Below, one piece after another: positions 205 to 34,495 of a stretch of DNA of 34,600 bases. This DNA comes from Spirogloea muscicola (lineage: Eukaryota). The notes beneath the pieces were generated by a model, which saw only the letters and a list, made by a program, of their open reading frames with translations, made no database searches and had not been told where the DNA came from. How positions within the stretch are numbered: the stretch's first letter is position 1; the number at the start of each line of letters is the position of its first letter. The translations under genes and the position numbers were made by a program. The DNA is taken from assembly GCA_009602725.1 (NCBI GenBank), contig WELB01000013.1:818561-853160 (forward strand). The letters run 5' to 3'.

Positions 205-870
205 TTCTGGCCCCTTCGAGAGCCACTTTCTTTCCTTTGAACGTTCGTTCATTCTCGTTCTGAGCTGGCCAATCAAGTTCATCGCCCTCTACACTCGCCT
301 TCGCCCCCGCTCTCGCCCTCGCCTCGCCCTTGGGAGAGCCACGTCTTCTACTTGACGATCCTAATGGGCAAGCTTTGAGAAAGCGCTTTTGGCCCGTGCA
401 GACCTTGTTTCGGGCTGGCTATTGACAGCCCTTGCCCAATCGGAAGAGCCACTTTCTTTCGTTCTTTCGATCATGCTTACATTTCTTCAAAGAAGAACCA
501 GTTTTTCAAGGGGTGGAGGGCTGTAAGGAGGGAAAAGCTCTTCCAATGTAGGACAAAGGCTGTGTTTGCTGTAGTATCTAGCATAGCTGTGTGGTTTTAG
601 CACCTTTCACAGCCCTTTACATTTATCTCTCCTTTCAACCTTGTCCTTTCTTTCTGGGCTGGCTTTTCAAAGCCCTCGCCCGAGCTTGCTACTTTGTGAG
701 AGGCAAGCCCTCAGGAATAATGAGGTCTTACAGGGCCAGAAGGCGCAACGACTCGAAACTTTCTCCGTGATATCTAGAAATGTCAAGGGCCACCCCCCCC
801 CACGAAAGGGAATAAAGGAAGAAAGAAGCTCTTTCAAGGGCGACGATGTGACAGGCCAGCCCAAACAGGC
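205..870. repeat. Cluster of degenerate retroelement 3' ends (nest 1)
   Basis: Decayed copies of the 3'-terminal motif: GACCTTGTTTCGGGCTGGCTATTGACAGCCC..GAAGAGCCAC (400-451), ACCTTGTCC..GGGCTGGCTTTTCAAAGCCC (638-675), TTGGGAGAGCCAC (329-342), and minus-strand copies near 530-570 and 820-865. Confidence 0.7.
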
Positions 871-3350: not shown

Positions 3351-3723
3351 CTTCTCGACCGTCACACAGGCCCTCTGAAGCCACTAGGATCTTGCTATAG
3401 GTCTCCTTCGCCCGAATGGAGCTGACGAAGGCACCCTCGAGGCGTGAGCCAACATGCCCCGTCCGTCGGGAACAAGAAGGTGGGCTGATGGCCACCAATG
3501 GAGCTCAAAGCCACAGGGAAAGGAACTGCAGTTGCGTAGCGAAGGCGGCAGTCGTGGCAGCGATGGTATTGGAGGTGGGAGCGGCGGCGGAGGCTCCGCT
3601 GTGAGGAACGACGGCGGCGGGTGGCGGCGGCGGCGGCCGAGGGGGGGGGCCTCGCAGAGCTTGAGACTGGGAGTAATTTGGGTTGTGAACGTTGTACGAC
3701 CAGAGCGTCAGGCACCAGCGTTA

Positions 3724-3774
3724 TCAGATTAACTGGTGGCAGGGAGAGGCCAGCCCAAAAGAATGGACAAGGTC
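3724..3774 (-). mobile_element. Short 3' end of a gamma-type retroelement
   Basis: Minus strand reads GACCTTGTCCATTCTTTTGGGCTGGCCTCTCCCTGCCACCAGTTAATCTG, nearly identical to 4235-4284. Confidence 0.75.
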
Positions 3775-3814
3775 GCGTCCTCTGTGCCTCTTTCCCTGCA
3801 GCGAGCTACTCAGA

Positions 3815-4147
3815 GGAAGAAGTGGCTCTCCCAATGGGGGCAAGGGCTGTGAGAAGCCAGCCCGAAAAGAATTGACAAGGTTCGAAGGGGCCAAACTACG
3901 AGCTAAGCAGCGACTGCGGGGCCTGAAGAGGCTATGGCAGAATGGGGGAGGATGGACCACTTAGTAGTTACGAGTGAGGAGCCTCACATCCGACAGACTA
4001 GCTGCCGGTAAACTATCCCCCTGACGAAAGCCGGAGGCCGCAGCGAGAGCACGGCCAGCACGCAGATGCAAGGCGTGGGCCATGGACCGCTGGAGGGAGA
4101 CGGACAAGCGCATACGATACACCTGAGCCCACGAGCCAGCGGCGTTG
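3815..4147 (-). mobile_element. 5'-truncated alpha-type retroelement (333 bp) with 7-bp TSD
   Basis: Flanked by ACTCAGA at 3808-3814 and 4148-4154. Encodes ..SDVRLLTRNY-stop and matches 15856-16187. Confidence 0.9.
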
Positions 4148-4220
4148 ACTCAGACCTGATGTTGCTCACTCGTGGGTACTGAGCTTCCCTCTGCATCGTT
4201 TCTGTGTTCTGCAGTGTTTT

Positions 4221-4345
4221 CTCGCAAGCGCGGCCAGATTAACTGGTGGCTGGGAGAGACCAGCCCAAAAGAATGGACAAGGTCTGAAGGAGTCGGAGTG
4301 CTAAGGACTGAGACAGCAGTAAGCGAACTCTCAGTAACCTCTCGT
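4221..4345 (-). mobile_element. 5'-truncated gamma-type retroelement (125 bp) with 9-bp TSD
   Basis: Flanked by CAGTGTTTT at 4212-4220 and 4346-4354. Begins ACG AGA GGT TAC TGA (TRGY-stop) and ends in the GGGCTGG hairpin motif. Confidence 0.85.
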
Positions 4346-4385
4346 CAGTGTTTTGTAGTGTAGTCCTTTCTCTGGCTTTTTCCAG

Positions 4386-4591
4386 GGGATAGTTTACCGG
4401 CAGCTAGTCTGTCGGATGTGAGGCTCCTCACTCGTAACTACTAAGTGGTCCATCCTCCCCCGTTCTGCCATAGCCTCTTCAGGCCCCGCAGTCGCTGCTT
4501 AGCTCGTAGTTTGGCCCCTTCGAACCTTGTCAATTCTTTTCGGGCTGGCTTCTCACAGCCCTTGCCCCCATTGGGAGAGCCACTTCTTCCT
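4386..4591 (+). mobile_element. 5'-truncated alpha-type retroelement (about 206 bp) with 10-bp TSD
   Basis: Flanked by CTTTTTCCAG at 4376-4385 and 4592-4601. Near-identical inverted copy of 3815-4020. Confidence 0.88.
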
Positions 4592-4707
4592 CTTTTTCCA
4601 GCCCCTATCCTCAATGGGCGAACCCTTCTCTCTTTCTCCGGCTCCTCTTTCTTTGGACATTGTCTTTGCCAGCCCCTCTTCTCTATGGGCGCGCACTTCT
4701 CTTTAGC

Positions 4708-4741
4708 CCTTGCCCTTGCCCCCATTGGGAGAGCCACTTCT
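4708..4741 (+). mobile_element. Micro-insertion of the alpha 3' tip (about 34 bp) with 8-bp TSD
   Basis: CCTTGCCCCCATTGGGAGAGCCACTTC flanked by TCTTTAGC at 4700-4707 and 4742-4749. Confidence 0.7.
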
Positions 4742-4749
4742 TCTTTAGC

Positions 4750-7700
4750 GCGTCCACCCCTAAGAAGCGAGGGGACCCGCGAGGTGACCACGCTCCTCAT
4801 TCTCAGGGTACCATGCCCCATGTGCCCTGACGTCCCTGAATGTATTCTCCGGCGACACAGGTGCCGCAGCCGCAAACGCCCGCCGCGCCGTCGCCACCAC
4901 TGCCGCCGTCGTCCCCACCGCCCCCATCTCCCCCGACGCGGCCTTCCCAACCATCCCGCCTCTCGAGCCGCCCAGCCCCCCCGCAGCCGGCGCCATTGAC
5001 GCCACCTCCGCCACCGCCGCCTCCACCTTCGCCGAGCGCGCCGGCTCCACCTCCTTCGCCCCCACCTCACTCGCCCGAACCACTGCTGTACCAGCACTGC
5101 CAGAGGACCTTCAACACGCGGGCCGGCCGGACCAACCACGAGCGAGTCTGCACGTGCCGCAACAACTGTGCGGAGCAGGCGCCTAGCGCAGCGGCTGCGG
5201 GCGGCCGTCGGAGCAGACCAGGCAGGCCAGTCCCTCCCGCGCCAACCCCTCCCACGCCTCAACACTGGCAGTGGCTGGCTGGCCTCGACCTGGCTGCCAT
5301 CCACCGCCAGGCGGCCCTTCCGCTCCTCCGCCATGTACCCCGCTGGCTGCGCCGGCACATTCGTCGCGCGCTCCGCCCGGCGATGCAGCGGATTGTCAGT
5401 GACCACCAGGACGAGGCGGCTTGGAAGCAGTTTCTCCTCATCCCCCGCCTGCTGCTCGGGCGCGTCCCCCACGATGGCCGCTGGCGGGGCCAGCAGCCCC
5501 TCCTGGAGCGCGTCCAGTTGTTCGAGAGCGGACATTGGGAGGAGCTTCTTGAGCGCCACAACGAAGCGGTGGCAGCCTTGGCAGCAAACCGAGGTGACGC
5601 GCGGGCAGCGCCAGACAGGGCCGCCAACGTCCGCCGGGCTCTGCGCTTCGGTCACGCGGGCGAGTTGTCCAGGGCGGTCCAGGCCCTGGACGACTCGGTG
5701 CTGGCGCCAACCAACGCAGCCACACGGGCGGCCCTGGAGTCCCTGCACCCTGAGGTCCGCTCCCCCCCTGCCTCCGTGGCTGGCCACCTTGGCACCGCCG
5801 GAGGAGGGGCCCTCGACGCCGACGCTCTTCGGCAGGCTCTGCAGAGCAGCCGTCGCGCAGCCGCAGGAGGTCCTTCACACATGCTCACCGAGCATCTCCG
5901 CGAGCTCTTCCTGGAGGAAGAATCAAATGATTTCCAGGCACTCCACCAGATGTGCCAGCTCCTTGCTCGCGACCAGGTCCCGGCCAGCATTCGCTGCGTC
6001 ATTTGCACCAGCACGCTGCTGGCCCTCAGCAAGGCCAACGGGGGGGTCAGGCCCATTGCCGTTTGCGAAGTGCTCTACCGCCTGGTGGGGCGCACGCTAT
6101 GGCAACAGCACGCAAGGCTGGCCCAGGCACACCTGGCACCTCACCAGTTCGGCGCGGGGCTGCGGAGCGGCGGTGAGGTGGTCGTGCACGGCGTACGGGC
6201 CGCCTTGGACCTGAACCCCGGATGGATGGCGGTAGATGTCCGGAATGCTTTTGACAGCGCAGACCGGGAAGTCATTGCAGAGGAGCTGCGGGCGGCCTTC
6301 CCCAGCCTCCTACCCTTCTTCAGGCTGGGCTACGGTCAGCCAAGCGACTTGCTGTGGCGGACAGGGCGTGGTGGGGTGGAGGTCCTCCAGTCCTCCACAG
6401 GCGCGCCGCAAGGGGATCCGCTGGCGGGGCTCCACTACGCCCTGGCTCACAACTGTGCGCTGCTGGCAACGGTCGCGGCTCACCCTGGCGTCCTCGTCCC
6501 CTCGTACGCGGATGACACCACGCTGGTGGGGCCGCCAGACAACGTCGTGGCAGCCTTTGCCACTCTCGAAGTGCAGTTGGGCGCGATCGGCCTGGGCATC
6601 CGTGCGGCCAAGTGCAGTGCTTGGTCCCCCCGGGGCCTGCCAGCCCACCTGCGCCTACCCTCTGGCTGCCAGATACCAGCCGGGGGCTTCACCCTCCTCG
6701 GCGCCCCCATAGGCTCCCCAGCCTTTGTGATGGAGCAGCTCCAGTTACGACTGCTGGAGCACCTCCGGCCGGCGGACCGTCTCCACACGCTGCAAGACAT
6801 GCAGCTGGCGACCGCTATGCTGACCAGGTGCATTGCCCAGCGTCCGCACTACTTGGCCTGCGTCCTCCCCCCCTCCCCGGCGGTGAAGGCGGTGTACGCG
6901 GCTTTTGACACCGGCATTCTGGCGAGCGCGGCCACTCTCCTCCAACACCCCGGTTTCCTCACCACGCCAGCCGCGCTGCTCCAGGCTAGCCTGCCAGTTT
7001 GCCGCGGCGGCTTGGGCTGCCGCCCAGTCGCCCGCGCCTGCGAGGCTGCCTACCTGGGCAGCTGGGCCCAGGTCGCCGCCCCCATCTGCCAACGGTCTTC
7101 CAAGTTCAACGCAACCGCACCCTGGAGCGGGTGGTAGCTGATGTGGAGAGCGGCCAGTTGCCCTTCCAGGCTGCTCTTTGCGCTGCCCATGACAGGCTAC
7201 TGGCGGCCCACCCGACATGTCGCAGCAGGTCGTTTTGTCGTCCACCTCGCGCACACCCCCGACCTGCGGGCCCAGGCACGCTACACTGCGCTGGCGGACA
7301 AAGCGGCCTATGACCAGGTGGTGGAGCTCCTTCCGCCGCACGACCTTCGAGGGCGCGCCCGGCTGCTCTCAGCCTCCTCCCCCAGGGGGGCGGCGTGGTT
7401 ATCAGCTCTCCCAATCTACGCGTCGCTCACAACACCAGACGAGGTTTTCAGGACGGCGGTCCACTGGCTCCTGGGCCTCCTCCCTTCCTGTCTCGTCGGG
7501 GTCCAACTGTGCGAGTGCGGTGCCCGCCACGATGACCCTGCGACGCTGGCTGCCCACATACTCTGCTGCGCGCATGGGGGCGAGCGGACCGGTTCACACG
7601 ACCTCCTGCAAGACGGCATGCAGGGTGTGTTCATGGAGGCCGGCTACAAGGTCAGTGGAAAATACGACAATTATGCCCATCAAGCGGGGCGCCGCCGGAC

Positions 7701-8308
7701 AGCTCCACACCCGCCGCGCTGACCTAGTCGCCATCCCGCCCGGAGGAGGTCCGCGTATCATCGCAGATGTGGTGACTGCAGATTGCGTCGACTCCGCCAA
7801 CCCCGCCAAGTCAGCGACGCTCGCCGGCCACGCGGTCGCTTTGGCGGCTCGGAGTAAGTAGCGCAAGTACGCTGACCACCCTCCAGGCGATGTCTTCGCG
7901 GCCCTGGCCATTGACGTTCACGGGGCCTTCGGCAGTGGCTAGTTGGATCTCCTCCAGCGGCTTGCCCGGCAGGCCATCGAATGGCGGCCGTGTTTGCCAG
8001 ACTTCATTGCTGTCGGCTCCCTCGCCCAGGTATTTCGTATGAGGCTGGCGGTCTCGTTCCAGCGCTCTTTGGCTCATGCGGTCCACACGCGAGCTGGCCG
8101 CGCTATTGCTGCTGCCTCAGGGTCTTGGCTGATCGCAGCTTTTCCTGCTTCGAGTTATTCTGATTTGTTGTTGCGCACTCGTTGTTACTGAGCATCCCTC
8201 TGCATCATTATTGGTGTGTAATTTTGTCATTTTCTTTGGATTTGGACATTGTCCATTCTTTTTTGGGCTGGCTTTGCTAGCCCCGCTTCTCTCAGGGCGA
8301 GCACTTTC
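4750..8308 (+). mobile_element. Near full-length CRE-clade-like non-LTR retrotransposon (beta family)
   Basis: Single-ORF architecture: Pro-rich N-terminus, zinc finger, RT, CCHC knuckle, PD-(D/E)xK-type endonuclease, then a 3' UTR ending GGGCGAGCACTTTC. No LTRs. The 5' boundary is approximate and no TSD was found. Confidence 0.9.
4840..8191 (+). pseudogene. Disabled RT-RLE polyprotein
   Basis: RT motifs KANGGVRPIAV, QFG, DVRNAFD, GAPQGDPL, YADD, LLGAPIG and LPVCRGGLG; knuckle CECG..AHILCC..RTGSHD; endonuclease RRADLV..IADV..RSK*RKY..LAIDVHG. Frameshifts near 7100, 7230 and 7655. TAG stops at 7859-7861 and 7940-7942, where the sister copy has GAG and TGG. Confidence 0.9.
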
Positions 8309-8361
8309 TTTGGGAGAGCCACCTTCTTTCACAGCCCCCGCCATGTTTGGAAGAGGGGAGG

Positions 8362-9320
8362 GCTCGCCCATAGAAAAAGAGGGGCTAGCAAAGCCAGCCC
8401 AGAAAAGAATGGACATTGTCCGCAGGCCTCAAAAGGCCACAAAACAGTGCCAGGAAAGACAAAACTACACACCGAGACACGAAATGATGCAGATGGATGC
8501 TCAGTAACCACGAGTGAGCAACAGCAAATCAGAATAACTCGAAGCCGGAAAAGCGGCACTCTGCCGAGACCCTGAGGCAGCAGCCATAGTGCGGCCAGCG
8601 CGCGTGTGGACCGCATGAGCCTGAGAGGCTGGAGCGAGACCGCCAGTCTCATTCGAAAGACCTGAGCGAGAGGCCAGCAGCATTGAGCCTGGCGAACCCG
8701 GCCGCCGCTCAATGCCCGCCGGGCAAGCTGCTGGAGGAGATCCAGCCAGCCACTGCCAAGGGCCCCGTGAACGTCAATGGCCAGAGCCGCGAAGGCATCG
8801 CCTGGAGGGTTGTCAGCGTACTTGCGCTCCTTACTCCGAGCCGCCAAAAGCGACCGCGTGCCCAGCGAGCGTCGACGACTTTGCGGGTTTGGCGGAGTCA
8901 ATTCAATCTGCAGTCACCACATCTGCGGTGATATGCGGACCTCCTCCGGGCGGGACGGCAACTAGGTCAGCGCGGCAGGTGTGGAGCTGTCCGTCGGCGC
9001 CCCGCTGGATGGGCATAATTGTCGTATTTTCTAAATGCCACCTGGTAGCTGGCCTCTAGGAACACACCCTGCATGGCGTCTCGCAGAAGGTCGTGTGTAC
9101 CAGTCCGCTCTCCCCCGCGCGCGCAGCGGAGCATGTGGGCAGCTGGCGCGGCAGGGTCATCGTGGCGGGCACCGCACTCGCTCTGTTGGACCCCGACGAG
9201 GCAGGTAGGGAGGAGGCCCACAAGCCGGTGGACCGCCGTCTACCCTCGTCTGGCATTGTGAGCGCCGCGTAGAGTGGGAGCGCTGACAACCACGCCGCCG
9301 CCCCAGGGCGGCCGACCTCA
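8362..9320 (-). mobile_element. 5'-truncated beta-family copy, tail-to-tail with the long element
   Basis: Homologous to about 7376-8302: WLSALP, ECGARHDDPA..AHMLRC..RTGTHD, RSKERKY..LAIDVHG, SYSDLLLLTRGY-stop (8501). Frameshifted. Confidence 0.9.
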
Positions 9321-9329
9321 GGAGCTCAC

Positions 9330-10180
9330 GTCCTCTGGACTTGCTTCTTCTGGAAGAGCTTATTGAAAGAAGCAAGCGCGGCCAGGTTAGGTTGTGGCTG
9401 GGAGAGGCCAGCCCATAGGAATTGACAAGGCTTATTACTCTCCGCGCCTGGGCCAGCCATCGGAAAGAAGGCGCGGCCAGATTGACTGGTGGGCCAGCCC
9501 AAAGGAATGGACCAGGTCTGAAGGAGCCGATTGTGCAGAAATCAGAGAAGGCGCGCATGATATTGAAAGGGAGGCCAATTCTAGCCTTGCAAATGTCCTG
9601 TTACTGGGTAATGAGCTGGCCAATGGGGACACTAGTATCCCCGAGTGAGCACATGCATATCTGACATGCCATACTGAGGCGCCAAACCACCACCACGGAA
9701 GCCATTAGCCTGGGCTAATGCACGACCAGCACGCTGGTGTATCGCGAGTGCCTGCGAGCGCTGTAGACTCAATGATAGCCGCATTCTATAGCATGCAACG
9801 ATGGCTTGCGGGACGCTAGAATGCCCCAAGAATGCCCCTCTTCTCTATGGGCGCGCACTTCCTTATCTGGACTCGTCCTCTATGGGCGAGCACTTCCTTC
9901 CTCTGGACTTTCTTCTTCTGGAAGAAGCAAGCGCGGCCAGATCAACTGGTGGCTGGGAGAGGCCAGCACAAAGGAGTGGACAAGGCTTGTTACTCTCCGC
10001 CCCCTTAGCCAGCTCAATACCTAGTTAACAAGACATTTGTAAGGCTAGAATTGGCCTCCCTTTCATGCGCACCGCGCCGCCTTCTCTCCGCGCCTGGGCC
10101 AGCCATCGGAAAGACGGCGCGGCCAGATTGACTGGTGGGCCAGCCCAATGGAAAGCCGGATTGTGCAGAAATCAGAGCGT
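9330..10180. mobile_element. Composite of gamma-, delta- and beta-type 3' ends, including a delta fragment at about 9465-9829 (minus)
   Basis: 9632-9829 minus encodes YRMRLSLSLQRSQALAIHQRAGRA..SDMHVLTRGY-stop. Terminal hairpin motifs near 9375-9430, 9470-9520, 9930-9985 and 10115-10147; beta tips at 9835-9895. Confidence 0.8.
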
Positions 10181-10624: not shown

Positions 10625-12828
<2,204 letters not shown>

Positions 12829-13319: not shown

Positions 13320-13870
13320 GTCAAACGGCTCTTCAGAGCAAGGCGATGGCTGTGCGAGGCTAGCACAAAAGGGACAGCTCCTCCGATGTCAAGCGATGGC
13401 TGTGAGAGGCCAGTCCAAAGGGATGAATAGAGATGAACAATGATCTTATTTCTTCCAAGGTGACGAGGATAGGATTCGCGCCGCCCATGTCGGAGGTGGC
13501 AGCCGGGGCACCGCTAGCATGCAGATATCAAGTCGAAGCAAGGAAATGCTGCAGAGAGGGGCAAGCGATTCACAAGGGAAATGCTTTGCAACGTTGTCGA
13601 GAATCTCTTTGACTTTCCACTTCATTTTGGCCCCTCGGGACCTTGTCCTATTTCGGGCTGGCTTTTCACAGCCCTCGTGGATACTAGCGTCCCCTGTCAT
13701 GTTAGCCACCTTACCCATAGGGCTTCGCTCTATGTAGCGCCTCTTTCTTCACGAGTTTTGCCTGAACAGTGTATTGGCTTACATTGGCCTCCATTTCATA
13801 TAATATGCGCTCTGCGCACCTTCTCTCAACCTTTGGCACCCTTTCAATTCAAGCGCACCGCGCGCCTTCA
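13320..13870. repeat. Degenerate retroelement 3' ends (start of nest 3)
   Basis: Two tandem minus-strand ends at 13325-13425. GACCTTGTCCTATTTCGGGCTGGCTTTTCACAGCCC (13639-13674) is fused directly to CGT GGA TAC TAG (RGY-stop) and a delta-like UTR similar to 14867-14990. Confidence 0.7.
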
Positions 13871-14119
13871 CTTCGGATGAGCTTAACTTCGCAGTGAAGT
13901 CTAGTGGACAGACAATCTGTGACAGCGGGTGGAGGCCCTAGACCTGGTCAGGGCGACGCTTCTCAGCCCTCTAATTAGTCTGACTTGCACTTGCTGACTA
14001 GAGCTTATTGAGAGCCCACTTGCTGACGTCTTGGAGACTAGTCTCCTGCTTTTTGCACCTTCGGCTCTCAGACAACGTCTGAGAGCTGAAGCCCGTCCCT
14101 TCGGCTCTCAGACAACCTG

Positions 14120-15095
14120 TTCCGTACAGCGCTCCATTACCACCTCGGCCTCCCCCCCGCTTGCTTGGCTGGCATCCGCCAGCGCGAGTGTGGTCATATT
14201 GCCGATGTCAAGCTCGCTCTTGCTGCGCACATGCTGAGGTGTGTTGAGGGGGGTGAGCGCATTGCCTCCCACGACTTACTCAGAGATACTATATTTGGAA
14301 TTGTGCGAGAGCCGGGGTATCATCCGGCGATGGAGGTGTCCGGCATCATGCCAATCTCCTCAAGGTGCGGCAAGCCATGCGTGCAGCGGCTGGACGTGGT
14401 CGCCAGCCCCCGGGGCGGTGGGCCTCGTCTGCTCCTGGACTTGGTACTGATCGACGCATACAAGGCTGGCGCACCCACGTCAACCGTGTCTGTCTGGGCC
14501 ACATCCAGCGCAGAGCGCAAGAAGGAGCGGCACTACCAGGACCATCCCCGAGGGGACCATCTTTATCTGTGTGCCATGGATATCTACGGAGGCTACGGCG
14601 TAAAATGGTCCTCCCTGATCCAGCATCTGGCCCGGCTGGTTGATGCGCGTTGTCGAAGTCGGGGGGACAGCTTGGGCCACTCCAGCATTTCCAGGCCTTA
14701 GTCGCATACTACAGAATGCGGCTCTCGCTTGGTTTGCAGCGGTCGCAAGCATTGGCTCTTCATCAACGTGCAGGGCGCGCTCTATCACGCCTCTGGCTTT
14801 CGTGGCGGCGCTTAAGCTCCCCAAGTTAGCTTGTCGAATTTGTTTGTGCTCACCCGTGGGTACTAATGTCACCTTAGGCACCTCACTTTAGGACTCCGTA
14901 TTACGTTGCCGTTTAGTTTGCTCTAGGCTCTGCCTGAACACTGTATTGGCTTGAATTGGCCTCCCTTTCATTTCATGCGCTCCACGCGCTTCCTCCTCTT
15001 CCTCCTCTTTTTGCACCATCCGGCCCTCGCAGACCTTGTACATTCCTTTTGGGCTGGCCTCTCAGCCACTGCCGTAAATTGGAGGAGCTGTTTCC
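14120..15095 (+). mobile_element. 5'-truncated delta-type retroelement (knuckle + endonuclease + 3' UTR)
   Basis: ECGH..AHMLRCVEGGERIASHD..GYHPAMEVSGIMPI..RLDVV..LLLDLV..AERKKERHY..AMDIYG, then frameshifted YRMRLSLGLQRSQA and NLFVLTRGY-stop (14852-14866). Terminal motif at 15031-15090. Confidence 0.85.
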
Positions 15096-15279
15096 TTTCT
15101 TTTTTTGGGCTGGCTTTGCCAGCTACTCTTCTCTATGGGCGAGCACTGCCCCCAGCCCCCTTCGAACCTTGTTCATTCTCTGTGGGCTGGCCGATCCCAG
15201 CCCCTATCCTCTATGGGCTGGCCTCGCGGGCTGGCCACGCTGCGGCGAAGGCCGCTCGCAGCAAGGCGGCCAACAGAGA

Positions 15280-15705
15280 AAGTGCTCGCCAATAGAGAAG
15301 AGGGACTGGCAAAGCCAGCCCAAAAAAGAATGGACAATGTCCACAGCCAAAGAAAGAGGAGCCGGAAAAAGGACTACACTACAAAACACTGCAAAACACA
15401 TAGACGATGCAGAGGGAAGCTCAGTACCCACGAGTGAGCAACATCAGGTCTGAGTAGCTCGCTGCAGGGAAAGAAGAAGAAGTGGCTCTCCCAATGGGGG
15501 CAAGGGCTGTGAGAAGCCCGAAAAGAATTGACAAGGTTGGAAGGGGCCAGGGAAAGAGGCACTCCGTCGAGACCCAGAGGCGGCGGCCATAGCATGACCT
15601 GCTCGCGTGTGGACGGCGTGGGCAAGGGAGCGTTGAAGCGATACCGCCAGGCGCATGCGGAAGACTTGGGCGAGCGAACCGGCGGCGTTGAAGCCGGGCA
15701 TCGCC
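15280..15705 (-). mobile_element. 5'-truncated beta-type copy carrying a nested alpha tip
   Basis: PGFNAAGSLAQVFRMRLAVSLQRSLAHAVHTRAG..SFPAASYSDLMLLTRGY-stop (15421), followed by the beta 3' UTR. Confidence 0.85.
15475..15547 (-). mobile_element. Alpha 3' tip (73 bp) with 10-bp TSD
   Basis: Flanked by CAGGGAAAGA at 15465-15474 and 15548-15557. Confidence 0.85.
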
Positions 15706-15711
15706 CCTGGC

Positions 15712-16187
15712 CAAACACACCGACCACCCGGCTGCAGATGAGTTCGTACCCCTGGCCGTGGACGTGCACGGGGCTCTCGGGTCCCGGTGGCTCGACCTGC
15801 TGGCCAGGCTTGCGCGGCGTGCTGTGTCCCGCTGGCGCGGTGAGCCGGCTGACTTCAATGCCGCCGGCTCGTGGGCTCAGGTATATCGTATACAATTGTC
15901 CGTCTCCCTTCAGCGGTCCATGGCCCACGCCTTGTATTTGCGTGCTGGCAGTGCTCTCGCTGCGGCCTCCGGCTTTCGTCAGGGGGATAATTTTCCGGCA
16001 GCTAGTCTGTCGGATGTGAGGCTCCTTACTCGTAACTACTGAGTGGTCCATCCTCCCCCATTCTGCCATAGCCTCTTCAGGCCCCGCAGTCGCTGCGTAG
16101 CTCGTAGTTTGGCCCCTTCGAACCTTGTCAATTCTTTTCGGGCTGGCTTCTCACAGCCCTTGCCCCCATTGGGAGAGCCACTTCTTC
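15712..16187 (+). mobile_element. 5'-truncated alpha-type copy (longest alpha piece in the window)
   Basis: DHPAADEFVPLAVDVHGALGSRWLDLL..SDVRLLTRNY-stop (16042), plus the full alpha UTR ending GGGAGAGCCACTTCTTC. Confidence 0.88.
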
Positions 16188-16390
16188 GACCTGGTGTTGC
16201 TCACTCGTGGGTACTGAGCTTGCCTCTGCATCGTCTACGTGTTTTGTAGGTGTTTTGTGGTGTAGTCCTTTTACCGGCTCCCCTTTCTTTGGCTTTGGAC
16301 ATTGTCCATTCTCTTTTAAGATTTAGGGTGTACCCCAGCCCCTCTTCTCTATGGGCGAGCACTTCTCTATGGCGAGCACCACTTCTTTCT
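16188..16390 (+). mobile_element. Beta-type 3' end directly abutting the alpha tail
   Basis: GACCTGGTGTTGCTCACTCGTGGGTACTGA (DLVLLTRGY-stop) plus UTR with a tandemly duplicated tip CTTCTCTATG(G)GCGAGCA. Confidence 0.8.
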
Positions 16391-16678
16391 GGCCTCTTCC
16401 CCTCTTCTCTGAGCGGTCCCGGCGCGCGTGCGGGACGGTTGCCACGCGGCGCACCTGCGAGCTTCAGGCCCGGCGGGGGTGTCGGTTAGGGGCAGCCTGG
16501 AGATGTTTCTGATTGCTGCCCGTAGCCCGCCCGGCAGCCGGCGGGCGGGGGGGGAGACCTTCCTCGCATTGCCCCCCGAAGCCGGGCAGTTCCTGCAATG
16601 ACGGGCAGCTCTGTGGGAACTTTTTGACCAGGGTCGGGCAGGCTGGGAGCTAAGAGGGGAACAAAAGTCTTCCCGTGA

Positions 16679-17404
16679 GACCCGCCGCTTACGGCGGCGG
16701 CCGCGGCGGCCGCCGCCGCCGTCGGCGCCGCCGCCGCCGCNCTGGCGCCGGCGAGGCCGTCGTCGGACCCCGAGTCTGACGGGGTTGCGGCCGGCCCAGC
16801 GGTGTTCCCATCGCCGCCACCGTCGCCATGCGCAACCGGCTCCTCCGCCGCCTGCGGCCCGTCGGCGGACAAGTCGTGGGCGGTGCCCTCGCGGTCGGCG
16901 ACGCGGCTCATCCTGGTCGCCGCCGCCGCCGTGACCGGCGCCCTGGTCATGGCCGCCGCCGTTGCGGCCTGCTACCTCCGCCACATTGGCCTGCGGCACG
17001 GCGGCGGGCAGGCCGCGGCGCGCGCCCGCGCCGAGGCCGCCGCCAAAGAGGAGGTGGCGCGCGGAGCCTCCGTGCCCATCTACGTCGCCGGCACGCTCGT
17101 CATCATGGCCGGCGACGACCGCCCACAGTACATTGCCCATCCATCGTCGCCGCTGCGCGACGCGCTGCCAACACCAGCTGGCGACTTGGACTTGACGGCT
17201 GCCGGAAGCGTCGAGGGCGAGCCTCGGGACGGGGATGGCGGCGCCGAGGAGGCCGGAGAGATCACGTCGGAGGCACAGGACGCTCGCCAGCTCGGCGGCG
17301 GGCCCAGCGCCGGACCGGCGGAGCCCAGCGGTGGTGGCGACTGCTTGCATTGGGGAGCGCTTGGGAGGATGCCGTGGATGGCAGCCCGTCGGAGTCTTGG
17401 CTGA
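16679..17404 (+). CDS. Single-pass membrane protein with VIMAG motif, GLUTAMINE DUMPER-like; start not resolved
   Basis: Hydrophobic segment LILVAAAAVTGALVMAAAVAACYL followed about 40 aa later by LVIMAGDDRPQYIAHP, which resembles the GDU VIMAG..PxxLAxP motif. An N at 16741 obscures the 5' end. Confidence 0.65.
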   Translation, partial: DPPLTAAAAAAAAAVGAAAAXLAPARPSSDPESDGVAAGPAVFPSPPPSPCATGSSAACGPSADKSWAVPSRSATRLILVAAAAVTGALVMAAAVAACYLRHIGLRHGGGQAAARARAEAAAKEEVARGASVPIYVAGTLVIMAGDDRPQYIAHPSSPLRDALPTPAGDLDLTAAGSVEGEPRDGDGGAEEAGEITSEAQDARQLGGGPSAGPAEPSGGGDCLHWGALGRMPWMAARRSLG

Positions 17405-18237
17405 CGGCCACCTCGTCAGTGCCGGCGCCACCTTCGCCGAGGCCCCTCACCATGTAGTCACCCATTGCAATGCTGCCGCACGCTGTCGCGCTGCAATATA
17501 GTCCAAGGTCTGCGTAGCAGACCCACAAATTTTTCCTCTTCTGGCATGTTGCACCAGACTTCGTATGACAGGAGGGATGAATCCATGGCCGATGCGCAAG
17601 AATGAGACCTTGACGACCACGCAGAAAGGCGCTGAATTTCGCCCTGCACCAGCAACAGCGGCCTGCCGCCAGTCTCGAGGATGCACTCACAAAGCACGGG
17701 CTGTTAGAGCTTGTCAAAGCTAATCTCTGTGGGGCTAGTGCTGCCTGCCGATGCACTCAGTGGCAGCATTGTCCTAGTACCGCCTAAGGCTTTCTGCATA
17801 TCCTCGATGTGGAACCCATGGATGGCTACGCCTGCTCATTAAAGGTAGATGCCTGAAGATCCACAAAGCAGGAAAAAACTTAGCAGGCGCGACTTGTAGT
17901 GGCAAACTTCATCGCTGGATCCAGATAACTCGCTGCTGCTTGCTCACGACCCGAAAGGGAACAGCCAGTCCTGGCCCACACACCAACCTGCGCAGCAGCG
18001 CCCCACTACCACCGTGGCATTGTAGGGTTCAGAGAACAATGGTCGCTGGAGTGTGGTCCCGAAAATCCATGATTTAGGCCTGCTGCACACTGACACAACC
18101 AGCTTCATGAAGTCAGCAGGATGGAGGCAGGGCCACGCAAGGAGCATCAAACCACAATCATTTAATACACTGTTCTCAGTCAGACCAAGATACCTCATCT
18201 CCTGATAGGCATTGCAAGCAGCTGTCTCATCTCTCGA

Positions 18238-21200
18238 CTATTTTCGCAAGGATCCCCACCGCCGCGCTTTCTGCAGAGTAATGGCCTTCAAAGAATTCAG
18301 TCACTTCTTGCAGCTGGTTACGCAATCAATTTGGCAAACGGAAGTGATTGTCTCCAATCTGTGATTGAAGCGATGAGCGCATGCTATTGCAGTTTGCATT
18401 GAGCACTGCCTTGCGTTGACCCTGGTCCAGATGGTCGAGAGAGGCTGAGCATACGTGGCTGCAGTGAAGCTGGCATAGCCAGCTTGACAGCCTGTGACAA
18501 GACATCACGTGAAGCAGAAGCTTTCTGATAAGCTTGCCTCTGATCCATCTGGAAGCGTCCCAGAAGCACGTCCAGCACTCCTCCTCAGCTGACTGTGCTG
18601 GCTCCTGAGTGGCACATCATCCTCATCGTCGTCTTCATCGTCCTTGTCATCCTCCAAAACCAAGGACTTCCTCTGTGCAGGGGTTGCACCTGCCGGGCTC
18701 TTGCCCTTCTTTGCAGCAGCACCTCTGCCTCTTCCAGAGCCCGTGGCCCTTTTTCTCCCTCTCCCACGCTGCGGTGATCGTGCAGGCTCCTGCAGTCTTC
18801 CTGTATCCTTAGTGGATGTTGCGGGCCTGGCAGATGAGCATGTGCAACTGAAGGTACGGTACTGCAAGTGACGCCTGTCCGGCAGCTGTTCTGCTTCTGG
18901 TCAGTAAGCATTACACCACCAGCTGAAATTGGAAAGGCTGACCTACCTCATCCTCCCAATCTTCTTCAGCTTCACGAGCGACCTCATGATCACTGTCTGA
19001 AGCAATGTCATCGTCATCATCAAGACCGTTGACTGCTTCCCTTATCATGGTTGCAGCAGCAGCGGCAGAGGCCCTGCGGCCAGCGAGGATCAGTTTAAGT
19101 AGCACATTGATGCAAACCGCATGATCATGGTGTTATTACACTTGAGGAAGCCGATGTGTGCAGCGACAGGCAAAAGCATAGACTTGATGTGATACCGTCG
19201 GTTCTGGCACGGGCTAGGAGTGTCAAGGGTGGACTGCGACAGAATGCGGCCTCTGGCAGTGGATGCTCCCCTGCCGCGACCCCTTCTGCTGCCTTTTGCC
19301 GAGCTTGTCCTGCCAGATGTGCTAGGAGTTGATTGACCTTCACCAACTGGATCCTCCTCACCATTCATGTCAAGCGCATCTGCAGGCCGTTTGACTGATT
19401 CCCTTCTCTGCACGTTCTCAACCTGCACGAGCAACAAGCAACAACTCAACGACCCAACTATTACTGGTTATACAAAGAATTAACAAACCACTAACACCAC
19501 GAAGCAATGTGAAGAGACCAGGCAACTATTCTTGGAATGGACATGGCGTGCAGAGTCCACTTTTAGTGAGCATGCGCTTAAGCACTGAGTGACATTCAGC
19601 ACTATACTTACGGGCCTTTCCTGCCTTTGGGCGTTCAGCAGGACATCTTGATGTCCTACTCTTGCAGTCAAGCCCGCTGCCTGCCTGGCTTCTTCTTCTG
19701 CCTCCCGTACCTGCAAGGTGCACAATACAAAGTCAGGAGTGAAGAAGGTGAAGACTGGTCAAGGTCTTATTGCTGCTGAAATATGGTCAGTAGTGACACA
19801 GTGATAATCTTCTTAGGCTCTACAAAATGCTCTCATCTTATGTGGAAGGCGTGTTAAAGATTGAGAGCACCGTAATCATTCCCACCTGTACGTGGTGGTT
19901 GACCATCTCCAAAACATCCCTCGCTTCCAAGAGCTGATTCTCCTCGCCTTCTTTCACAAGCTTGCTCTGATACCAAAAGACAACTCTGCTTACCATGGTT
20001 GTCAGCATGACAGGGTCACCAGTTTGACATTGGCATCAGTAGCTCTTGATCAAGAATCGGGTCATATCCATAAGAAGCACAAGAATGGTTGTGTGTGAGG
20101 TTAAGCTCGAATGTCATGCCTGTGTCTTATCCAGATTGCTTTTCATGCAGGTGTAGAATGCCTGTTTGTCATCCTTGTTGACAAACTCCTGAAGCGCCAC
20201 TCCCAGTTCATGTACTGAAAGGATCTCTGTCTTCTGCATGGCTATAAGTGGTGCATATATAAGGCTCACAAGTAGCAAACATGCTTTTGGAGGGCTTGAC
20301 TGCTTAGAGAAGGGCACTGGCACTAGACGATTTGTCTGGAAGGAGACAGTGTCTGCGTGAAGTGAATATCAGTGACTGAAGCTCACCAGATTACTTTCGC
20401 CCACCAGAGCTTCAATGTTCTGTTGATTCAGTTCTTCTGGTCTCAGCATCTCCACATCCTCAATGTTTTCTGCGAGTCATAATGGAGTTCTTACACTTAA
20501 AGAGTACTTGGAGGATTATCTTCGACAACATCACATTTGAAATTAGAATAACTGGTAGCAGCTGTAAGACCGTCATTGCGACATTTCAGCCAAGAAGAGG
20601 ATGAGTTGCCATGTCTACCATCTGCAGTTGCCCGCTTCTTTGGTGCCTTGGTGAAGAGAAGAATATCATGAGGATTTGCAACCTGCTTGAGGAGGAGAAA
20701 TCGCATGCTATCAAGGCCCACCATGAGGCTAACTACCACCCACTCCAAGCGAAGGATCCCTGCAGGCAATGTACTTGAATGAACAAGCAGTATTACTTCT
20801 TCTTAGGCATCTGATGTGTAGCTCTCACCTTGCCAACAAACCTCTGACCAAATCGCTGGGGATTGATTGTAGTGAAACCAGTGTAGTCGACCTGCAGCAG
20901 GAATTCACATTTGCCAAGTACGTCCAGTCAACCCTTCGCCAGAACTTTGAAAGGCTGATGCGTGACTTTGCAGACCTTCTTGACACCCTGTGAGTATGAT
21001 TTGCATACGTAGCACAGACCCGGACTCGAATTAAGGGAAGCATGGGCGGCGCTTCTTCTGCTCGATGTAGGCCAGCAAAATTGATCATCTCATGGACCTG
21101 TTGGCAAGCAAGAAGGAGGTGAGGGCAGCACAAGGAAAATCTTTTCAAGCTTCTATCTCAATTGCTCATAGCCAAGTCAACCCCCGAACAAAATAACCCT

Positions 21201-24199
21201 GAGTCAGAGAAGCTGTTTTTGATACTGTAAGACATGGGTGTTCACCTTGCCCTCAAGAAACTTGAGAACAGCACCTTCATCAGCTGCATTGAGATCTGAT
21301 TGATCTTTCAAGGATACCTGCACTAGGAGTAGGACTGAGGACAGTCCCAAGAATCCTTCGACATCATGCATTCAAAATACCATGTAAGAGATGACTGAAA
21401 TTGGGATGAATCTCATCCGTGACACTGTCACTGTTAGCTGTGTACCAGTTTTCTGGTATTGAAACTCACATCTGCAAATTTGAAAGGTCGCACTGATTGT
21501 AGGGGGATCTTAGTGGGTCGATATTGACTGCCCTGCAGCAATTCCATAACAACAAAGTCAGTTGTTCATAGCTTCATTGAATCGCAACTTAGGCATCTCT
21601 TTTCAAGTCTGCAGGCACACATGTCAGGCTTTATATATTCCATGGAGCACGAAGCGTGCCCAGTGTTGTCAGAGACCTTGATCTCAAGTAACAAGACATG
21701 CTTCGGAGCTGCTTCTCCATCAATCAAGGACGTCGCTACAGAAGAACCCGGCTGACTGATGTGAAATCCCATGCCTGGCACTTCCTAAAGGGTTTACAGT
21801 CATGAGGTGTAGCAGTCAAGAATGATAGGCAAGTCCTTCTTCCAGGATGTGCTTACTTGACACGCGTACACAAATATTGACACACGCCAACCTATGAGTC
21901 TCACAAGAACATTTGCAACCACAAAATGGATGATATGAAACAGGCACACTGTGCAGGAAGAGCTCTATAACAAGAGACTGTATTGGCAACGACAATGCAA
22001 TGACAAACGACGAGGGACATACTGTGCAGAGTACTCAATGGATCAAATGCTGCAGTCGGACTACTTAGCATGTCTTTGTTGTCATGAAAGCTCACCTGCG
22101 GATCCACAAGGCACTCGTGCTCATGACCCCAGATGACAAAGTCCAGGAACTTAGCCAGGAAATGTTCATTGATTGCATTCTTTGGGTTTGCTTTGACCCT
22201 GCACGTGACTCAAAAAAGAAAGCTCCATTCAGCAGCTGCTGTCCCCAAGTAATGCGTTGGACCAACGCTATTGAGTGGCAAAGTTGTGTGGTATCATCAC
22301 TGTGATCATCAAGTCAAATTCAGGGTAAGGCAAGGTTTCTTATACACTTACCTGTTCTGATGAAGCACGAGTATGTTGAACCAGTCCGACACGCTGCAAT
22401 CCTCTTGAGCTTCGGGCCGTATCCACTGAACAGCATGAGGAGTCTGCCAGAGAACGCTTTGTTTGAGTATGATCGAGTTTGAAAGACAAGCTTGAAATTC
22501 TAGCAGGAGGTGCTTCTCAGCTACTGTGAATGAGTTTCCCCTTACGAGCATACATAGCAATGAGGAGAAAAGATCGCACCTGGAACATTCTGTTTAGCCG
22601 CTCATCCCTGATATTGCCCATACCATACAATGCAATTCTTGACTTGCCCTGCAACCTCCTGGTTCAGCCATGTTATACACAAGGATTTGTCGATATCCAT
22701 AGATGAGTGCGCATCTCTTTGACATGAATGTAGGAAGTGCTTCAACATTCAAGAAGGTGCACACTTTACGCACCTTGCACAAGAGAATGGGATGAAGCTT
22801 AATATCACCAACTCCACTTCCTCCTAGAACCATCTTCCCGAAGTAGTTGACCAGATTGCATGTAGACAAGATGTCAATAGCAGATAAATTGTCCTGCAGG
22901 ACCACCATCAGCGGAATGTGGAGCTGGCAACAATCATCCAGGGAGCCTGCACTAGCTCATGCTTAAGCGAAAGATGTGAGGAGGATCCTGACTGCAGTAT
23001 CCAGTACTACAAGTAGGCCACAAGTCTAGGCACACTGCTGAAGAATTGATGAAGTATAGAGCTATCCCAGAGGAGTGGGAAATGTCTACCACGCCTGCTG
23101 GGTCATCGTGGTTCCCATGGATCGTGAAGACTGGCATGCCTACGTTGTAATGGGGATCTTCATAGTTGACATGCCCAAACCTGCCCAGATTTTGTTCTTA
23201 AGGAAAGCTAGGAGGCACACACACAGGAATCAAGGAGAAGGCCTACAGCTCTCCTAACAGGAGGCATACAAGGACCAGACCTCATTACCTTCACACAAGT
23301 GGCACAGGGCAACACACCACCTGCATGAGTATGAAGCTTCTACGTTTCATAAGCCCAATCAAAGCTCAATGGTGCAGTGCTTACCCTTGCGAGAAGTTGA
23401 CAGTCTGATCACTAACAACCTGGAACTTGACGGGATGATCATTGAGACAGTATCGTCGAAGCAGCTCAATTGTCCTCACTAACGTTGTTCGGGATGGCTT
23501 GTTTTCGTGGAAAAGGTCGCCACCAAGCAACATGAAGTCCACCTGCAGAGCACACTTTCTTAGCTAGGTCCTGAGCAAGTAGCACAATTACCTCCAGCCA
23601 GCGTCAGGTAGTGAGGGACAGCATAATCAGCTTGGTAGCTTGCAGGAGGCAACCAAGCTGGTCTCTCAGATGTATGTTCATGTTGATGGTGTGTGCTGTT
23701 GCGAAGAAGCTTGAGTAGTTCAGATAAGAAAGACCGTTGGAGACTATGGGCCATCCATTGTGGGACTGCCAAAAGTGACACTTCCTTATCAAGTAGCAAT
23801 TACAGAAAAGGGAGATCAGGTCAGTCACTGAGCATGGACATTTACCTTCTGCCTCTCAGCAATCTTACATATCTCCTCGAATGTAGCAAACGAGTCTTCT
23901 CTTCGAATTTCATCCTTCTCCATGAATCCAAGGTGGCAATCCGTGGCGACCAGGACTTTGAAGACATCATCACTGCGTGAAAACCTCCAATACTTAGATA
24001 CTTACGAGTGACATTGTTTCTCATTATAAATTGCATAAGCCTCACCTCATTACATGCAACAGTGAACGACTAAGCCAGCTGCAGCTGAAGTGTAACGAGC
24101 ACTCTCTGGAGCTAAAGCATGATGTATACTTGCGACGCGGTCGTTGCAGGATCACTCGGTTAGACTGGCAGTGCGGAAGGACCTGTCATCGGCCGACAT
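18238..24199 (-). CDS. MRE11: Double-strand break repair nuclease MRE11, multi-exon
   Basis: Exons encode [10 protein letters not shown] (23972-23846), [88 protein letters not shown]-type RGRGRG and terminal [12 protein letters not shown]. Putative exon 1 (24199-24183) splices in phase; a more upstream start is possible. Confidence 0.96.
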
Positions 24200-24444
24200 G
24201 CTGCTGGGGGCCAGCCGGCGCTGGGCTGCAACCCAGGTGACACGAGCTCCACGGCACGCTATCAGCTGCAACGGCACATTCTCCGCCACCAAGACATCCC
24301 TCCAGCTCGTTGCTGCCCCCGCGCACCCGCCGGGCCGTCTAACCTACAGGCACGCCCGCAGGGGCGCTGCCGCCGCGGCAGGAAGCGCGGCGAGGGCAGG
24401 GGAGGGCGCGACCTCCTGGCTGTACATCAGCTCGACAGCGTCGA

Positions 24445-24473
24445 GGTGGTGGTGGTGGTGGTGGTGGTGGTGG
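24445..24473. repeat. (GGT)n microsatellite
   Basis: About nine GGT units read directly. Confidence 0.9.
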
Positions 24474-24734
24474 GGGTAAAACTCGATCACTCGCTGGCCA
24501 AGCCAATGTCTCTCACTCCCATTGCCTTAACACGAGCTATTTCTTCCAGATAGTGTTTGTGGTAGTGGTGAAACAGCTCCACAAAGTAAGGCGACGGGCA
24601 AGGAGACGGTGGTTGTGAACGGCGCTTGGACCCCTGAGTCCCCGCCACGCCCACTGCAGGCCATTTGGCCAAAGCTTGGGTCAGACCAAAGCAGGCGTGG
24701 TCGTGCCACCACTGCCCGCCAGCGCCGCCGCACT

Positions 24735-24764
<30 letters not shown>
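24735..24764. repeat. (CGG)n microsatellite in the GC-rich divergent promoter region
   Basis: About ten CGG units read directly. Confidence 0.9.
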
Positions 24765-24765
<1 letters not shown>

Positions 24766-24869
24766 CGAGTCGGGTGTCTGGAATCGGCGTCCGCGTGCTC
24801 AGGGCTCTCTGCCTGCTCTCTGATCTTGGAGTTGCCACAGCTCCCATTCCCTTGACGGCCTTGGCCGCC

Positions 24870-26435: not shown

Positions 26436-26948
26436 GATTGAGACCAAGTTTGTAGATAAGCTATCTGCACAGCTGCATTGTGCTTCTTGACACTATTAAA
26501 GACTGACTCGCTTTGTGATTACATGACCAAGCCGCACAACACGGCGCTTGTGATCTCACAGAGAAAAAAAGAGAAAGCGTAAAATATCTTGGCCATGCTC
26601 AAACGACTTATATATCAAAGACTCAAAGACCCTCATTCATGAGACTCTGACACTCTGGAATAAGCATGTAAGATACATGGACGGGTGCATCGTGCTACTT
26701 AAGACCTCAATGACCTAGGTTGTACAGTCGAGTGCACAACCTCTCAACACATGTGATGCCAATAGAGGTAGCCTAAGACGGTGCAGTCGTCAATGATATG
26801 GCCAGTCTCTGGTATGATCAATATGAGAGTCTTTTACAGAGAGTAGTAGTCAACAAGGTGTGCCCTAAAGCAGGTACTAGCCTCCAATTGTCGTCTGCTC
26901 AAAAGATTGCGCCAAATTCGCGTGGCTTTGCAATATAGCAAGGTAACC

Positions 26949-27516: not shown

Positions 27517-27549
27517 GGCGCTCGCCGCCGCCCTGCCGCCGCCACGGCC

Positions 27550-27801: not shown

Positions 27802-27857
27802 CCGCCGCCGCCGCGGGGCGGCCTCCGGGCGGCGCGCTGTCCTTGGTGGCGCCCGCG

Positions 27858-34477: not shown

Positions 34478-34495
34478 GGCTGAGCTGCGGCCGCC

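What the first reader, a model, noticed from the sequence alone, without database searches (positions are those of the whole stretch)
3780..4750. Russian-doll nest: CRE-like retroelement families insert into each other's 3' ends
Seen: one beta 3' end is interrupted by three inserts, with a fourth at its tip. Each has a clean TSD: ACTCAGA, CAGTGTTTT, CTTTTTCCAG and TCTTTAGC. About 11 kb away another beta copy carries an alpha tip (TSD CAGGGAAAGA) roughly 15 bp from the first site. At 16187/16188 an alpha tail joins beta within 2-3 bp of the ACTCAGA site. I saw no such inserts in about 20 kb of host genes and introns. Known: RLE-bearing CRE-clade elements are often target-specific (SL-RNA genes, telomeric repeats). 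Inference: here the preferred target may be the 3' end of related elements, a self-perpetuating safe-harbour system shared by several families.
Basis: partly seen in the sequence, partly recalled or inferred. Interest (0 to 1): 0.85.

Follow-up and report, generated by a model that had tools for sequence, protein, structure and literature searches.

The report
Jumping genes stacking in relatives' tails
Several related jumping-gene families in a green alga have inserted into one another's tail ends up to three layers deep, most likely because their (CTT)-repeat tails prime on short C/T-rich spots that those tail ends supply in abundance and where insertions are likely harmless, rather than because they recognise one fixed site.

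Summary
The nest is real and deeper than reported. All five stated target-site duplications (TSDs) are exact. A fifth insert (TSD CTTTCTC) is the true host of the third one, and the whole nest has its own 7-bp duplication. The elements are R2-group, RLE-bearing non-LTR retrotransposons of a streptophyte alga; CRE membership fits on motifs but was not tested by tree.

Of 12 TSD-defined insertions in the window, 10 lie in 3' ends, 1 in an ORF body and 1 at a 5' edge (P about 0.002 by length; 0.02-0.065 after weighting for tail-like motifs). Eight of 12 TSDs begin with a tail-like triplet. In public contigs, all 14 tail-to-element joints in the displayed rows land in 3' UTRs, at many different spots. 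But 3' stubs are about 50-100 times deeper than the ORF body, and 90 alpha-tail and 149-168 delta-tail contigs run into unrelated DNA.

Verdict: loose, tail-matched target bias plus stub abundance and selection, like Alu-in-Alu and Cnl1-in-Cnl1. A dedicated cross-family targeting system is not shown and not excluded. No assembled genome was available for the decisive count.

The parts
3774..3780 (+). Left copy of CGCGTCC, likely TSD of the whole beta nest (right copy 4749-4755)
   Evidence: no empty site seen
3781..4707 (+). Host: 5'-truncated beta 3' end in four pieces (3781-3814, 4148-4220, 4346-4372, 4632-4707), ORF end SYSDLMLLTRGY-stop at 4182
   Evidence: 111 of 115 nt identical to the copy at 15274-15708
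3815..4147 (-). Insert 1: alpha 3' end, antisense, TSD ACTCAGA (3808/4148)
4221..4345 (-). Insert 2: gamma 3' UTR starting at the TRGY-stop codons, antisense, TSD CAGTGTTTT (4212/4346)
   Evidence: empty-site joint 4211>4346
4373..4631 (+).
   Evidence: empty-site joints 4369>4637 and 4369>4639
4386..4591 (+). Insert 3: alpha 3' end inside the epsilon tip, TSD CTTTTTCCAG (4376/4592), right after the (GGG)CTGG motif
   Evidence: 204 of 205 nt identical to insert 1
4708..4741 (+). Insert 4: 34-nt alpha tip at the beta tail, TSD TCTTTAGC (4700/4742)
   Evidence: no empty site seen
3723..3773 (-). Gamma-type 3' tip abutting the nest
   Evidence: 48 of 50 nt to insert 2
4756..8312 (+). Near full-length decayed beta-related element (B'): two zinc-finger-like motifs, RT with YADD, CCHC and RAD-x14-D endonuclease motifs, TRCY-stop; no tip inserted in its 3.4-kb body
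8361..9308 (-). Second B-type copy, tail to tail with B'
9311..10177 (.). Array of gamma-, delta- and beta-type tips; includes a delta-type tip with TSD CTCTCCGC (9993/10084, empty site at 9438) and an ambiguous TCTGGACT pair (9866/9902)
14060..15006 (+). Delta element inserted in the 3' UTR of an eta element, TSD CTTTTTGCACC (14049/15007)
   Evidence: empty-site joint 14048>15007
15274..15708 (-). Beta copy inserted antisense into an alpha ORF body, TSD GGCCAA (15268/15709); counter-example to 3'-end targeting
   Evidence: joint 15267>15709 in all four runs
15475..15547 (-). Alpha tip in that beta copy, sense, TSD CAGGGAAAGA (15465/15548)
   Evidence: joint 15464>15548
15226..16388 (+). Alpha (15226-16187, interrupted by the beta copy) joined without TSD to a 5'-truncated beta (16188-16388); the pair is flanked by CTGGCCTC (15218/16389) inside an epsilon tip
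   Evidence: composite status inferred, no empty site seen

Best explanation
These are high-copy, mostly 5'-truncated RLE-type non-LTR retrotransposons that likely insert by target-primed reverse transcription with a loose bias for short C/T-rich words matching their own (CTT)/(CT) tails, so they would pile up in each other's 3' ends, which are the richest and likely the most tolerated source of such words. Shown: sequential nested insertions with 6-11 bp TSDs; TSD starts that match the tail; C/T-rich sense strands in the 3' UTRs; 3' stubs far more abundant than bodies; clusters confined to three intervals between genes. Inferred: the endonuclease nicks with low specificity, the RNA tail anneals to the exposed purine-rich strand and primes cDNA synthesis, early truncation leaves another C/T-rich stub, and selection removes insertions from the compact genes. 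The loop is self-feeding but needs no dedicated recognition of relatives.
For: 8 of 12 TSDs start with TCT, CTT or CTC in element orientation against a background of 0.12 in 3' ends (P about 1e-5); all 4 alpha TSDs do. Tail-like triplets are 0.23 per position on the UTR sense strand, 0.015 antisense and 0.07 in the B' body. 9 of 14 contig joints land on such a triplet (P 0.001; partly an alignment effect). Landing spots are many and scattered. 90 alpha-tail contigs in run X3 (median loose part 233 nt) and 149-168 delta-tail contigs per run leave the family sequences altogether, and their loose-end consensus begins C/T-rich. Tip bins are 56-117 times deeper than the median B' body bin. Same logic described for Alu self-insertion at its A-rich linker (PMC2836564, passages).
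Against: Motif density does not fully absorb the excess: 10 of 12 in 3' ends still gives P 0.023 (fitted weight) to 0.065 (motif required). A young-looking 190-nt beta stub took four inserts while the adjacent 3.4-kb B' body, 6-7% diverged from high-depth family contigs, took none. 4 of the 10 3'-end events are antisense, where tail-like words are rare, and 4 of 12 TSDs (AAA, CGC, TTG, CTG) do not match the tail set. One position, just after GGGCTGG, recurs in more than one host family.
Confidence: 0.55

Rival explanations
1. True cross-family targeting: the protein (or the RNA by pairing with homologous DNA) recognises the 3' motif shared by the families, CCTTGTC(C/A)ATTCTTTTGGGCTGGC plus its hairpin, or the conserved ORF end, and nicks nearby.
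For: Residual enrichment after motif weighting. The motif is kept across families whose UTRs are otherwise unlike. Recurrent site at GGGCTGG|CTT: alpha in epsilon (4376), alpha tail to alpha 16146/16147 (about 5 times single-copy depth each), and a 4587>4663 joint that corresponds to this position in beta. Three alpha events fall within about 25 nt at the beta ORF end. 9 of 14 contig landing sites lie within about 20 nt of the GGGCTGG motif (read off). Most RLE clades are target-specific and some non-LTR targets are transposons (PMC4640811, passages).
Against: No dominant site; an ORF-body insertion; 90 and 149-168 tail contigs lead elsewhere; mixed orientation; the recurrent site itself begins CTT, so tail matching explains it equally; hairpin shows no two-sided covariation (0 of 6 pairs) and no consensus fold.
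Confidence: 0.25
2. No preference at all: insertions are random, survive only between genes, and hit 3' ends because 3' stubs are most of the element DNA.
For: Tips dominate element DNA in the contigs. Host genes are compact: the IDH gene has at least 7 aligned blocks in 2.2 kb. The nest was chosen for being extreme; without it only 5 of 6 events remain (P 0.035).
Against: Within the window bodies are longer than 3' ends (5675 against 3569 nt) yet hold 1 of 12 events (P 0.002); TSD starts are strongly non-random.
Confidence: 0.1
3. Many tail-to-stub junctions are not insertions into a stub but template jumps during one reverse transcription, or copies of an already nested master element or duplicated segment.
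For: The 16187/16188 join has no TSD while CTGGCCTC flanks the alpha+beta pair. The 7 tail joints whose strand is stated are all same-strand. Identical joints at 2-8 times single-copy depth could be one event amplified.
Against: It cannot explain the nest itself, where each layer has its own TSD and two inserts are antisense; empty sites exist for most. Near-identical joints differ in tail letters (16187>16147 TT, 16187>16146 T), which suggests separate events.
Confidence: 0.1

Closest known systems
Cnl1 (Cryptococcus) and MoTeR/FoTeR (Magnaporthe, Fusarium), R2-group RLE non-LTR elements
   Same: Single ORF with RT and C-terminal RLE, heavy 5' truncation, short variable TSDs (0-13 bp for Cnl1), arrays; Cnl1 is reported to insert preferentially into copies of itself, with its specificity undefined (PMC12810828, passages).
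   Different: Those arrays are subtelomeric, mostly one family, tied to telomere-like sequence. Here at least six families interleave in small intergenic clusters, with (CTT)/(CT) tails and no telomere repeat seen.
CRE clade of trypanosomatids (CRE1/2, SLACS, CZAR)
   Same: Single ORF, 1-2 zinc-finger-like motifs, RT, RLE, variable TSDs (PMC12278014, passages).
   Different: They insert at one position of the spliced-leader gene and end in poly(A); these elements have many landing sites and a pyrimidine-repeat tail.
Alu-in-Alu and other nested hot spots in the human genome
   Same: Tail-to-target annealing creates a self-insertion hot spot with sense bias; new elements are about 4-fold enriched in old ones (PMC2836564, abstract and passages). 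This is the closest working analogy.
   Different: L1 APE endonuclease and poly(A) tail; here an RLE enzyme, a (CTT) tail, and cross-family nesting among autonomous families.
Zepp of Coccomyxa/Chlorella
   Same: Green-algal LINE that forms clusters of nested copies (PMC3446292, passages).
   Different: About one large cluster per chromosome, probably centromeric; L1-like enzyme (recalled). Here three small clusters lie within 17 kb among genes.
EhLINE1 of Entamoeba histolytica
   Same: Non-LTR element without targeted insertion whose endonuclease has a short preferred word, with DNA context adding hot spots (PMC1635306, abstract); RLE type (recalled).
   Different: Different consensus (GCATT), AT-rich genome, nesting not the reported theme.
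Tx1-clade elements that target other transposons (Xenopus Tx1L into Tx1D; recalled)
   Same: A retroelement using another mobile element as safe target.
   Different: APE enzyme and a fixed site; no fixed site is seen here.

Membership tests
RLE-bearing non-LTR retrotransposons (R2 group in the wide sense) | Non-LTR-type RT domain | tested here: met
   RVT_1 E 8.6e-11, above cut-off; a profile of relatives hits R2 structures at E 1e-30 over positions 181-886 against L1 ORF2p at 1e-8
RLE-bearing non-LTR retrotransposons (R2 group in the wide sense) | C-terminal CCHC knuckle followed by a PD-(D/E)xK-like endonuclease | tested here: met
   CEC-x12-H-x3-C-x9-HD and RAD-x14-D in B' (split by a frameshift), CEC..SHD and RLD-x14-D in delta
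RLE-bearing non-LTR retrotransposons (R2 group in the wide sense) | TSD-flanked, 5'-truncated copies with a simple-repeat 3' tail | tested here: met
CRE clade | Single ORF with 1-2 N-terminal zinc-finger-like motifs | tested here: inconclusive
   CPMC..H..R and YQHC-x12-H-x3-C in different frames of the decayed B' copy; no intact copy in the window
CRE clade | REL spacing C-x1-3-C-x7-8-H-x3-4-C-x9-10-RHD/N ... R/KPD-x12-14-D/E as given in PMC12857005 | tested here: inconclusive
   Order and most spacings fit, but the C-to-H spacer is 12, RHD is SHD and RPD is RAD/RLD
CRE clade | RT groups with CRE1/SLACS/Cnl1/MoTeR in a tree | not testable with these tools
   No named CRE protein among the 8 and 36 hits; named relatives are Closterium, Klebsormidium and Porphyridium proteins
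CRE clade (trypanosomatid type) | Insertion at a fixed position of a multicopy target; poly(A) end | tested here: not met
   12 different target contexts in the window, 14 scattered landing sites in contigs; tails are CTT/CT repeats
Transposon-targeting site-specific LINEs (Tx1 type) | Most copies at one site in another element | tested here: not met
   Top recurrent joints are 2-8 times single-copy depth; many tails lead to unrelated DNA; tables were truncated, so the fraction is unknown

The most novel reading that the evidence does not exclude
A guild of at least six RLE retrotransposon families shares one conserved 3' signal (CCTTGTC..TTCTTTTGGGCTGGC plus hairpin) that serves both as the RNA handle for reverse transcription and, in DNA form, as a landing mark, so every truncated insertion of any family seeds a new target for all the others: a cross-family, self-renewing safe harbour in a gene-dense algal genome.
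Probability: 0.2. Interest if true: 0.75.

Novelty: new variant of a known kind. Interest (0 to 1): 0.45.

Why it matters
RLE elements are the textbook site-specific retrotransposons, and how Cnl1-like members choose between their own copies and host repeats is stated to be open (PMC12810828). This genome holds several recently active families at high copy number with clean TSDs, so one genome-wide count can separate tail annealing, motif recognition and selection. If the shared 3' motif is also the landing mark, it would be a dual-use signal that I did not find described for RLE elements, and of interest for R2-type gene insertion tools. If not, it is a tidy algal parallel to Alu-in-Alu nesting.

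Tried and rejected
No assembled genome is held, so no genome-wide count. Exact patterns for the alpha tip and the beta stop found 0 matches in metagenome and viral contigs; the closest full-length relative found 0 loci in metagenomes. Earlier-finding look-ups by place and by sequence were empty. A sequence search of solved structures with P0001 alone gave 0 hits; the profile search worked. The ESM Atlas gave only unnamed RVT_1 clusters. The shared 3' hairpin: 80% of cells pair but no two-sided change, and RNAalifold found no consensus structure; single-strand z-scores ranged from -2.5 to +0.7 over 7 tips, so a conserved structure is not shown. Rejected: assembly artefact (each layer has its own TSD and most have empty sites elsewhere); twin priming for the beta/alpha head-to-head join near 15709 (the beta piece has its own 3' end and a TSD); a single shared cut site at ACTCAGA (the three nearby events differ in position and strand). 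The window's own B' variants are missing from run X3; contigs drop rare variants, so this was not used. A Pfam test of an exon at 22597-22893 gave no hit. The TCTGGACT event is ambiguous; dropping it gives 9 of 10 classed events in 3' ends, P 0.001-0.036.
Full report
Setting. The window is eukaryotic, with compact intron-bearing genes. An exon of the isocitrate dehydrogenase gene (10625-12825) has a 100% identical hit labelled SM000013S26516 and then moss, lycophyte and liverwort proteins. The element's named relatives are from Closterium and Klebsormidium. I infer a streptophyte green alga. No assembled genome was held. The nest lies between a minus-strand gene ending near 3650 (aldolase-like peptide; the label is recalled) and the plus-strand IDH gene, so it is intergenic (inference).

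The observation. All five stated TSDs are exact, at 3808/4148, 4212/4346, 4376/4592, 4700/4742 and 15465/15548. Dropping the inserts restores a beta 3' end matching the copy at 15274-15708 at 111 of 115 nt. The rebuilt host aligns cleanly only if a fifth insert is also removed: an epsilon tip with TSD CTTTCTC (4366/4632), which is the real host of the third insert. The whole nest is flanked by CGCGTCC (3774/4749). Public contigs show the empty sites 4211>4346 and 4369>4637, and 15464>15548, 15267>15709 and 14048>15007. No empty site was seen for the TCTTTAGC, CGCGTCC and CTGGCCTC events, and only an indirect one (8273>4596) for CTTTTTCCAG. The two alpha inserts are 204 of 205 nt identical, so the nest is recent.

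What the elements are. The 4756-8312 copy encodes an RT (RVT_1, E 8.6e-11), two zinc-finger-like motifs, a CCHC knuckle and an RAD-x14-D endonuclease motif, broken by a stop and frameshifts. A profile of 7 relatives matches R2 structures at E 1e-30 and L1 ORF2p at 1e-8. They are therefore RLE-type non-LTR elements. CRE-like is reasonable from motif order (PMC12857005 and PMC12278014, passages), but no named CRE protein was retrieved, so no tree test was possible. The families end their ORFs in TRxY-stop. Most share CCTTGTC..TTCTTTTGGGCTGGC in the 3' UTR; the delta type lacks it. Tails are CTT or CT repeats. A hairpin after GGGCTG is possible in 80% of cells but shows no covariation.

Is there a preference, inside the window? 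I resolved 12 TSD-defined events: 10 in 3' ends (last 60 nt of the ORF plus UTR; 3569 nt in all), 1 in an ORF body (5675 nt) and 1 at the 5' edge of B'. By length alone P is 0.002 (10 of 12). Eight of 12 TSDs begin with a tail-like triplet (TCT, CTT, CTC), P about 1e-5 against 3'-end background, including all 4 alpha events. Such triplets are 0.23 per position on the UTR sense strand, 0.015 antisense and 0.07 in the B' body. Weighting by them raises P to 0.023-0.065. Six of the ten 3'-end events are sense and four antisense. The class boundaries and the triplet set are mine and were chosen after seeing the data; the events are few and not independent. All 32 tip hits with E<1 lie in three intervals and none in 16400-34600, as selection in gene-dense DNA would also give.

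Is there a preference, genome-wide? Five runs hold the stretch: four of one sample and one of a second organism. I laid X1, X2, X3 and X5 on 13600-16420 and X3 on 4140-8345. All are contigs and the tables are truncated: 15 of 955 and 15 of 264 joints, and 12 of 601 and 12 of 200 rows with letters between, were shown. Among the rows shown, 14 join a tail to a downstream element position, and all 14 land in 3' UTRs; two are probably the same event seen in both calls. The other rows were empty sites, family variants, internal deletions, 5' junctions or unclear, and were not counted. The 7 joints with stated strand are same-strand, and 9 of 14 land on a tail-like triplet (P 0.001, inflated by ambiguous junction placement). 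Each is 2-8 times single-copy depth; a duplicated or polyploid genome could account for the low multiples. Against exclusive nesting: 90 alpha-tail contigs in X3 (median loose part 233 nt) and 149-168 delta-tail contigs per run continue into DNA unlike the stretch at 85%; some may be old or other-family stubs. Availability is very uneven: tip bins are 56 and 117 times the median B' body bin (summed contig depth, not copy number). The second organism holds the same families at low depth, with two of the empty sites. The nested fraction cannot be computed from these tables.

Mechanism. I commit to loose, tail-matched target priming in a self-feeding landscape (0.55). Shown: nested order, TSD words, strand asymmetry of C/T words, stub abundance, clustering. 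Inferred: low-specificity nicking, tail annealing, selection. The rival, recognition of the shared 3' motif (0.25), keeps some support: the residual enrichment, an empty and older-looking 3.4-kb body beside a stub hit four times, and a recurrent site at GGGCTGG|CTT in more than one host family. That site also starts with CTT, so it does not decide the matter. Pure chance plus survival (0.1) fails on TSD words. Template jumping (recalled for R2) or amplified composites (0.1) may explain the 16187/16188 join, where CTGGCCTC flanks the alpha+beta pair, but not the nest.

Known parallels. Cnl1 is reported to insert preferentially into its own copies, with specificity undefined (PMC12810828, passages), and forms subtelomeric arrays with 1-12 bp TSDs (10.1101/2021.08.11.455996, passages). 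MoTeR arrays sit in telomeres (PMC7367193, passages). Zepp forms nested clusters in a green alga (PMC3446292, passages). Alu has a self-insertion hot spot explained by tail-target pairing (PMC2836564, abstract and passages). EhLINE1 has a short nick preference without targeting (PMC1635306, abstract). Most RLE clades are target-specific (PMC4640811, passages). I found no paper on nesting of RLE families in streptophyte algae: searches returned 0 papers, one search returned 2 reviews (PMC11630846 passages had no CRE mention), and the listings showed none. The library lacks most subscription papers and Repbase reports, and I read no supplements.

Verdict. It is a new variant of a known kind: multi-family 3'-end nesting by RLE elements with pyrimidine tails. 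Interest 0.45; the bolder dual-use-motif reading has probability 0.2 and would deserve 0.75.

Noticed in passing
window 16108: Hot spot where alpha copies appear to start: 103 contigs in run X1 have loose ends before 16108, about 80 nt from the 3' end; window tips at 15547, 15157 and 13628 start at the same motif. Possibly an RT stall at the 3' signal or a short non-autonomous form.
   Followed up: partly
window 4345 and 13675: Two inserts begin exactly at the T-R-x-Y-stop codons, and the beta at 16188 begins 15 nt before them; truncation points may cluster at the ORF end.
   Followed up: no
window 9331-9545 and 9899-10177: A segment of about 215 nt of stacked tips is duplicated on both sides of a delta-type copy (78-97% alike): an unusually long TSD or a local duplication.
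   Followed up: no
window 15218-16396: Alpha and a truncated beta share one flanking 8-mer and have no TSD between them: candidate cross-family template jump.
   Followed up: partly
window 3803-3810 and 16176-16183: The alpha 3' end (GAGCCACT) resembles the beta word beside the three clustered alpha events (GAGCTACT), 7 of 8 letters.
   Followed up: no
window 7381-8312 and 8361-9308: Two B-type copies lie tail to tail as a long imperfect inverted repeat (86-93% in blocks).
   Followed up: no
window 247-865 and 13324-13426: Older, decayed tips also lie in small arrays, so clustering predates the young families.
   Followed up: partly
window 27858-27974: Nuclear gene with a ribosomal protein L36 domain followed by an alanine/proline-rich extension, next to a 252-base N gap.
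   Followed up: no
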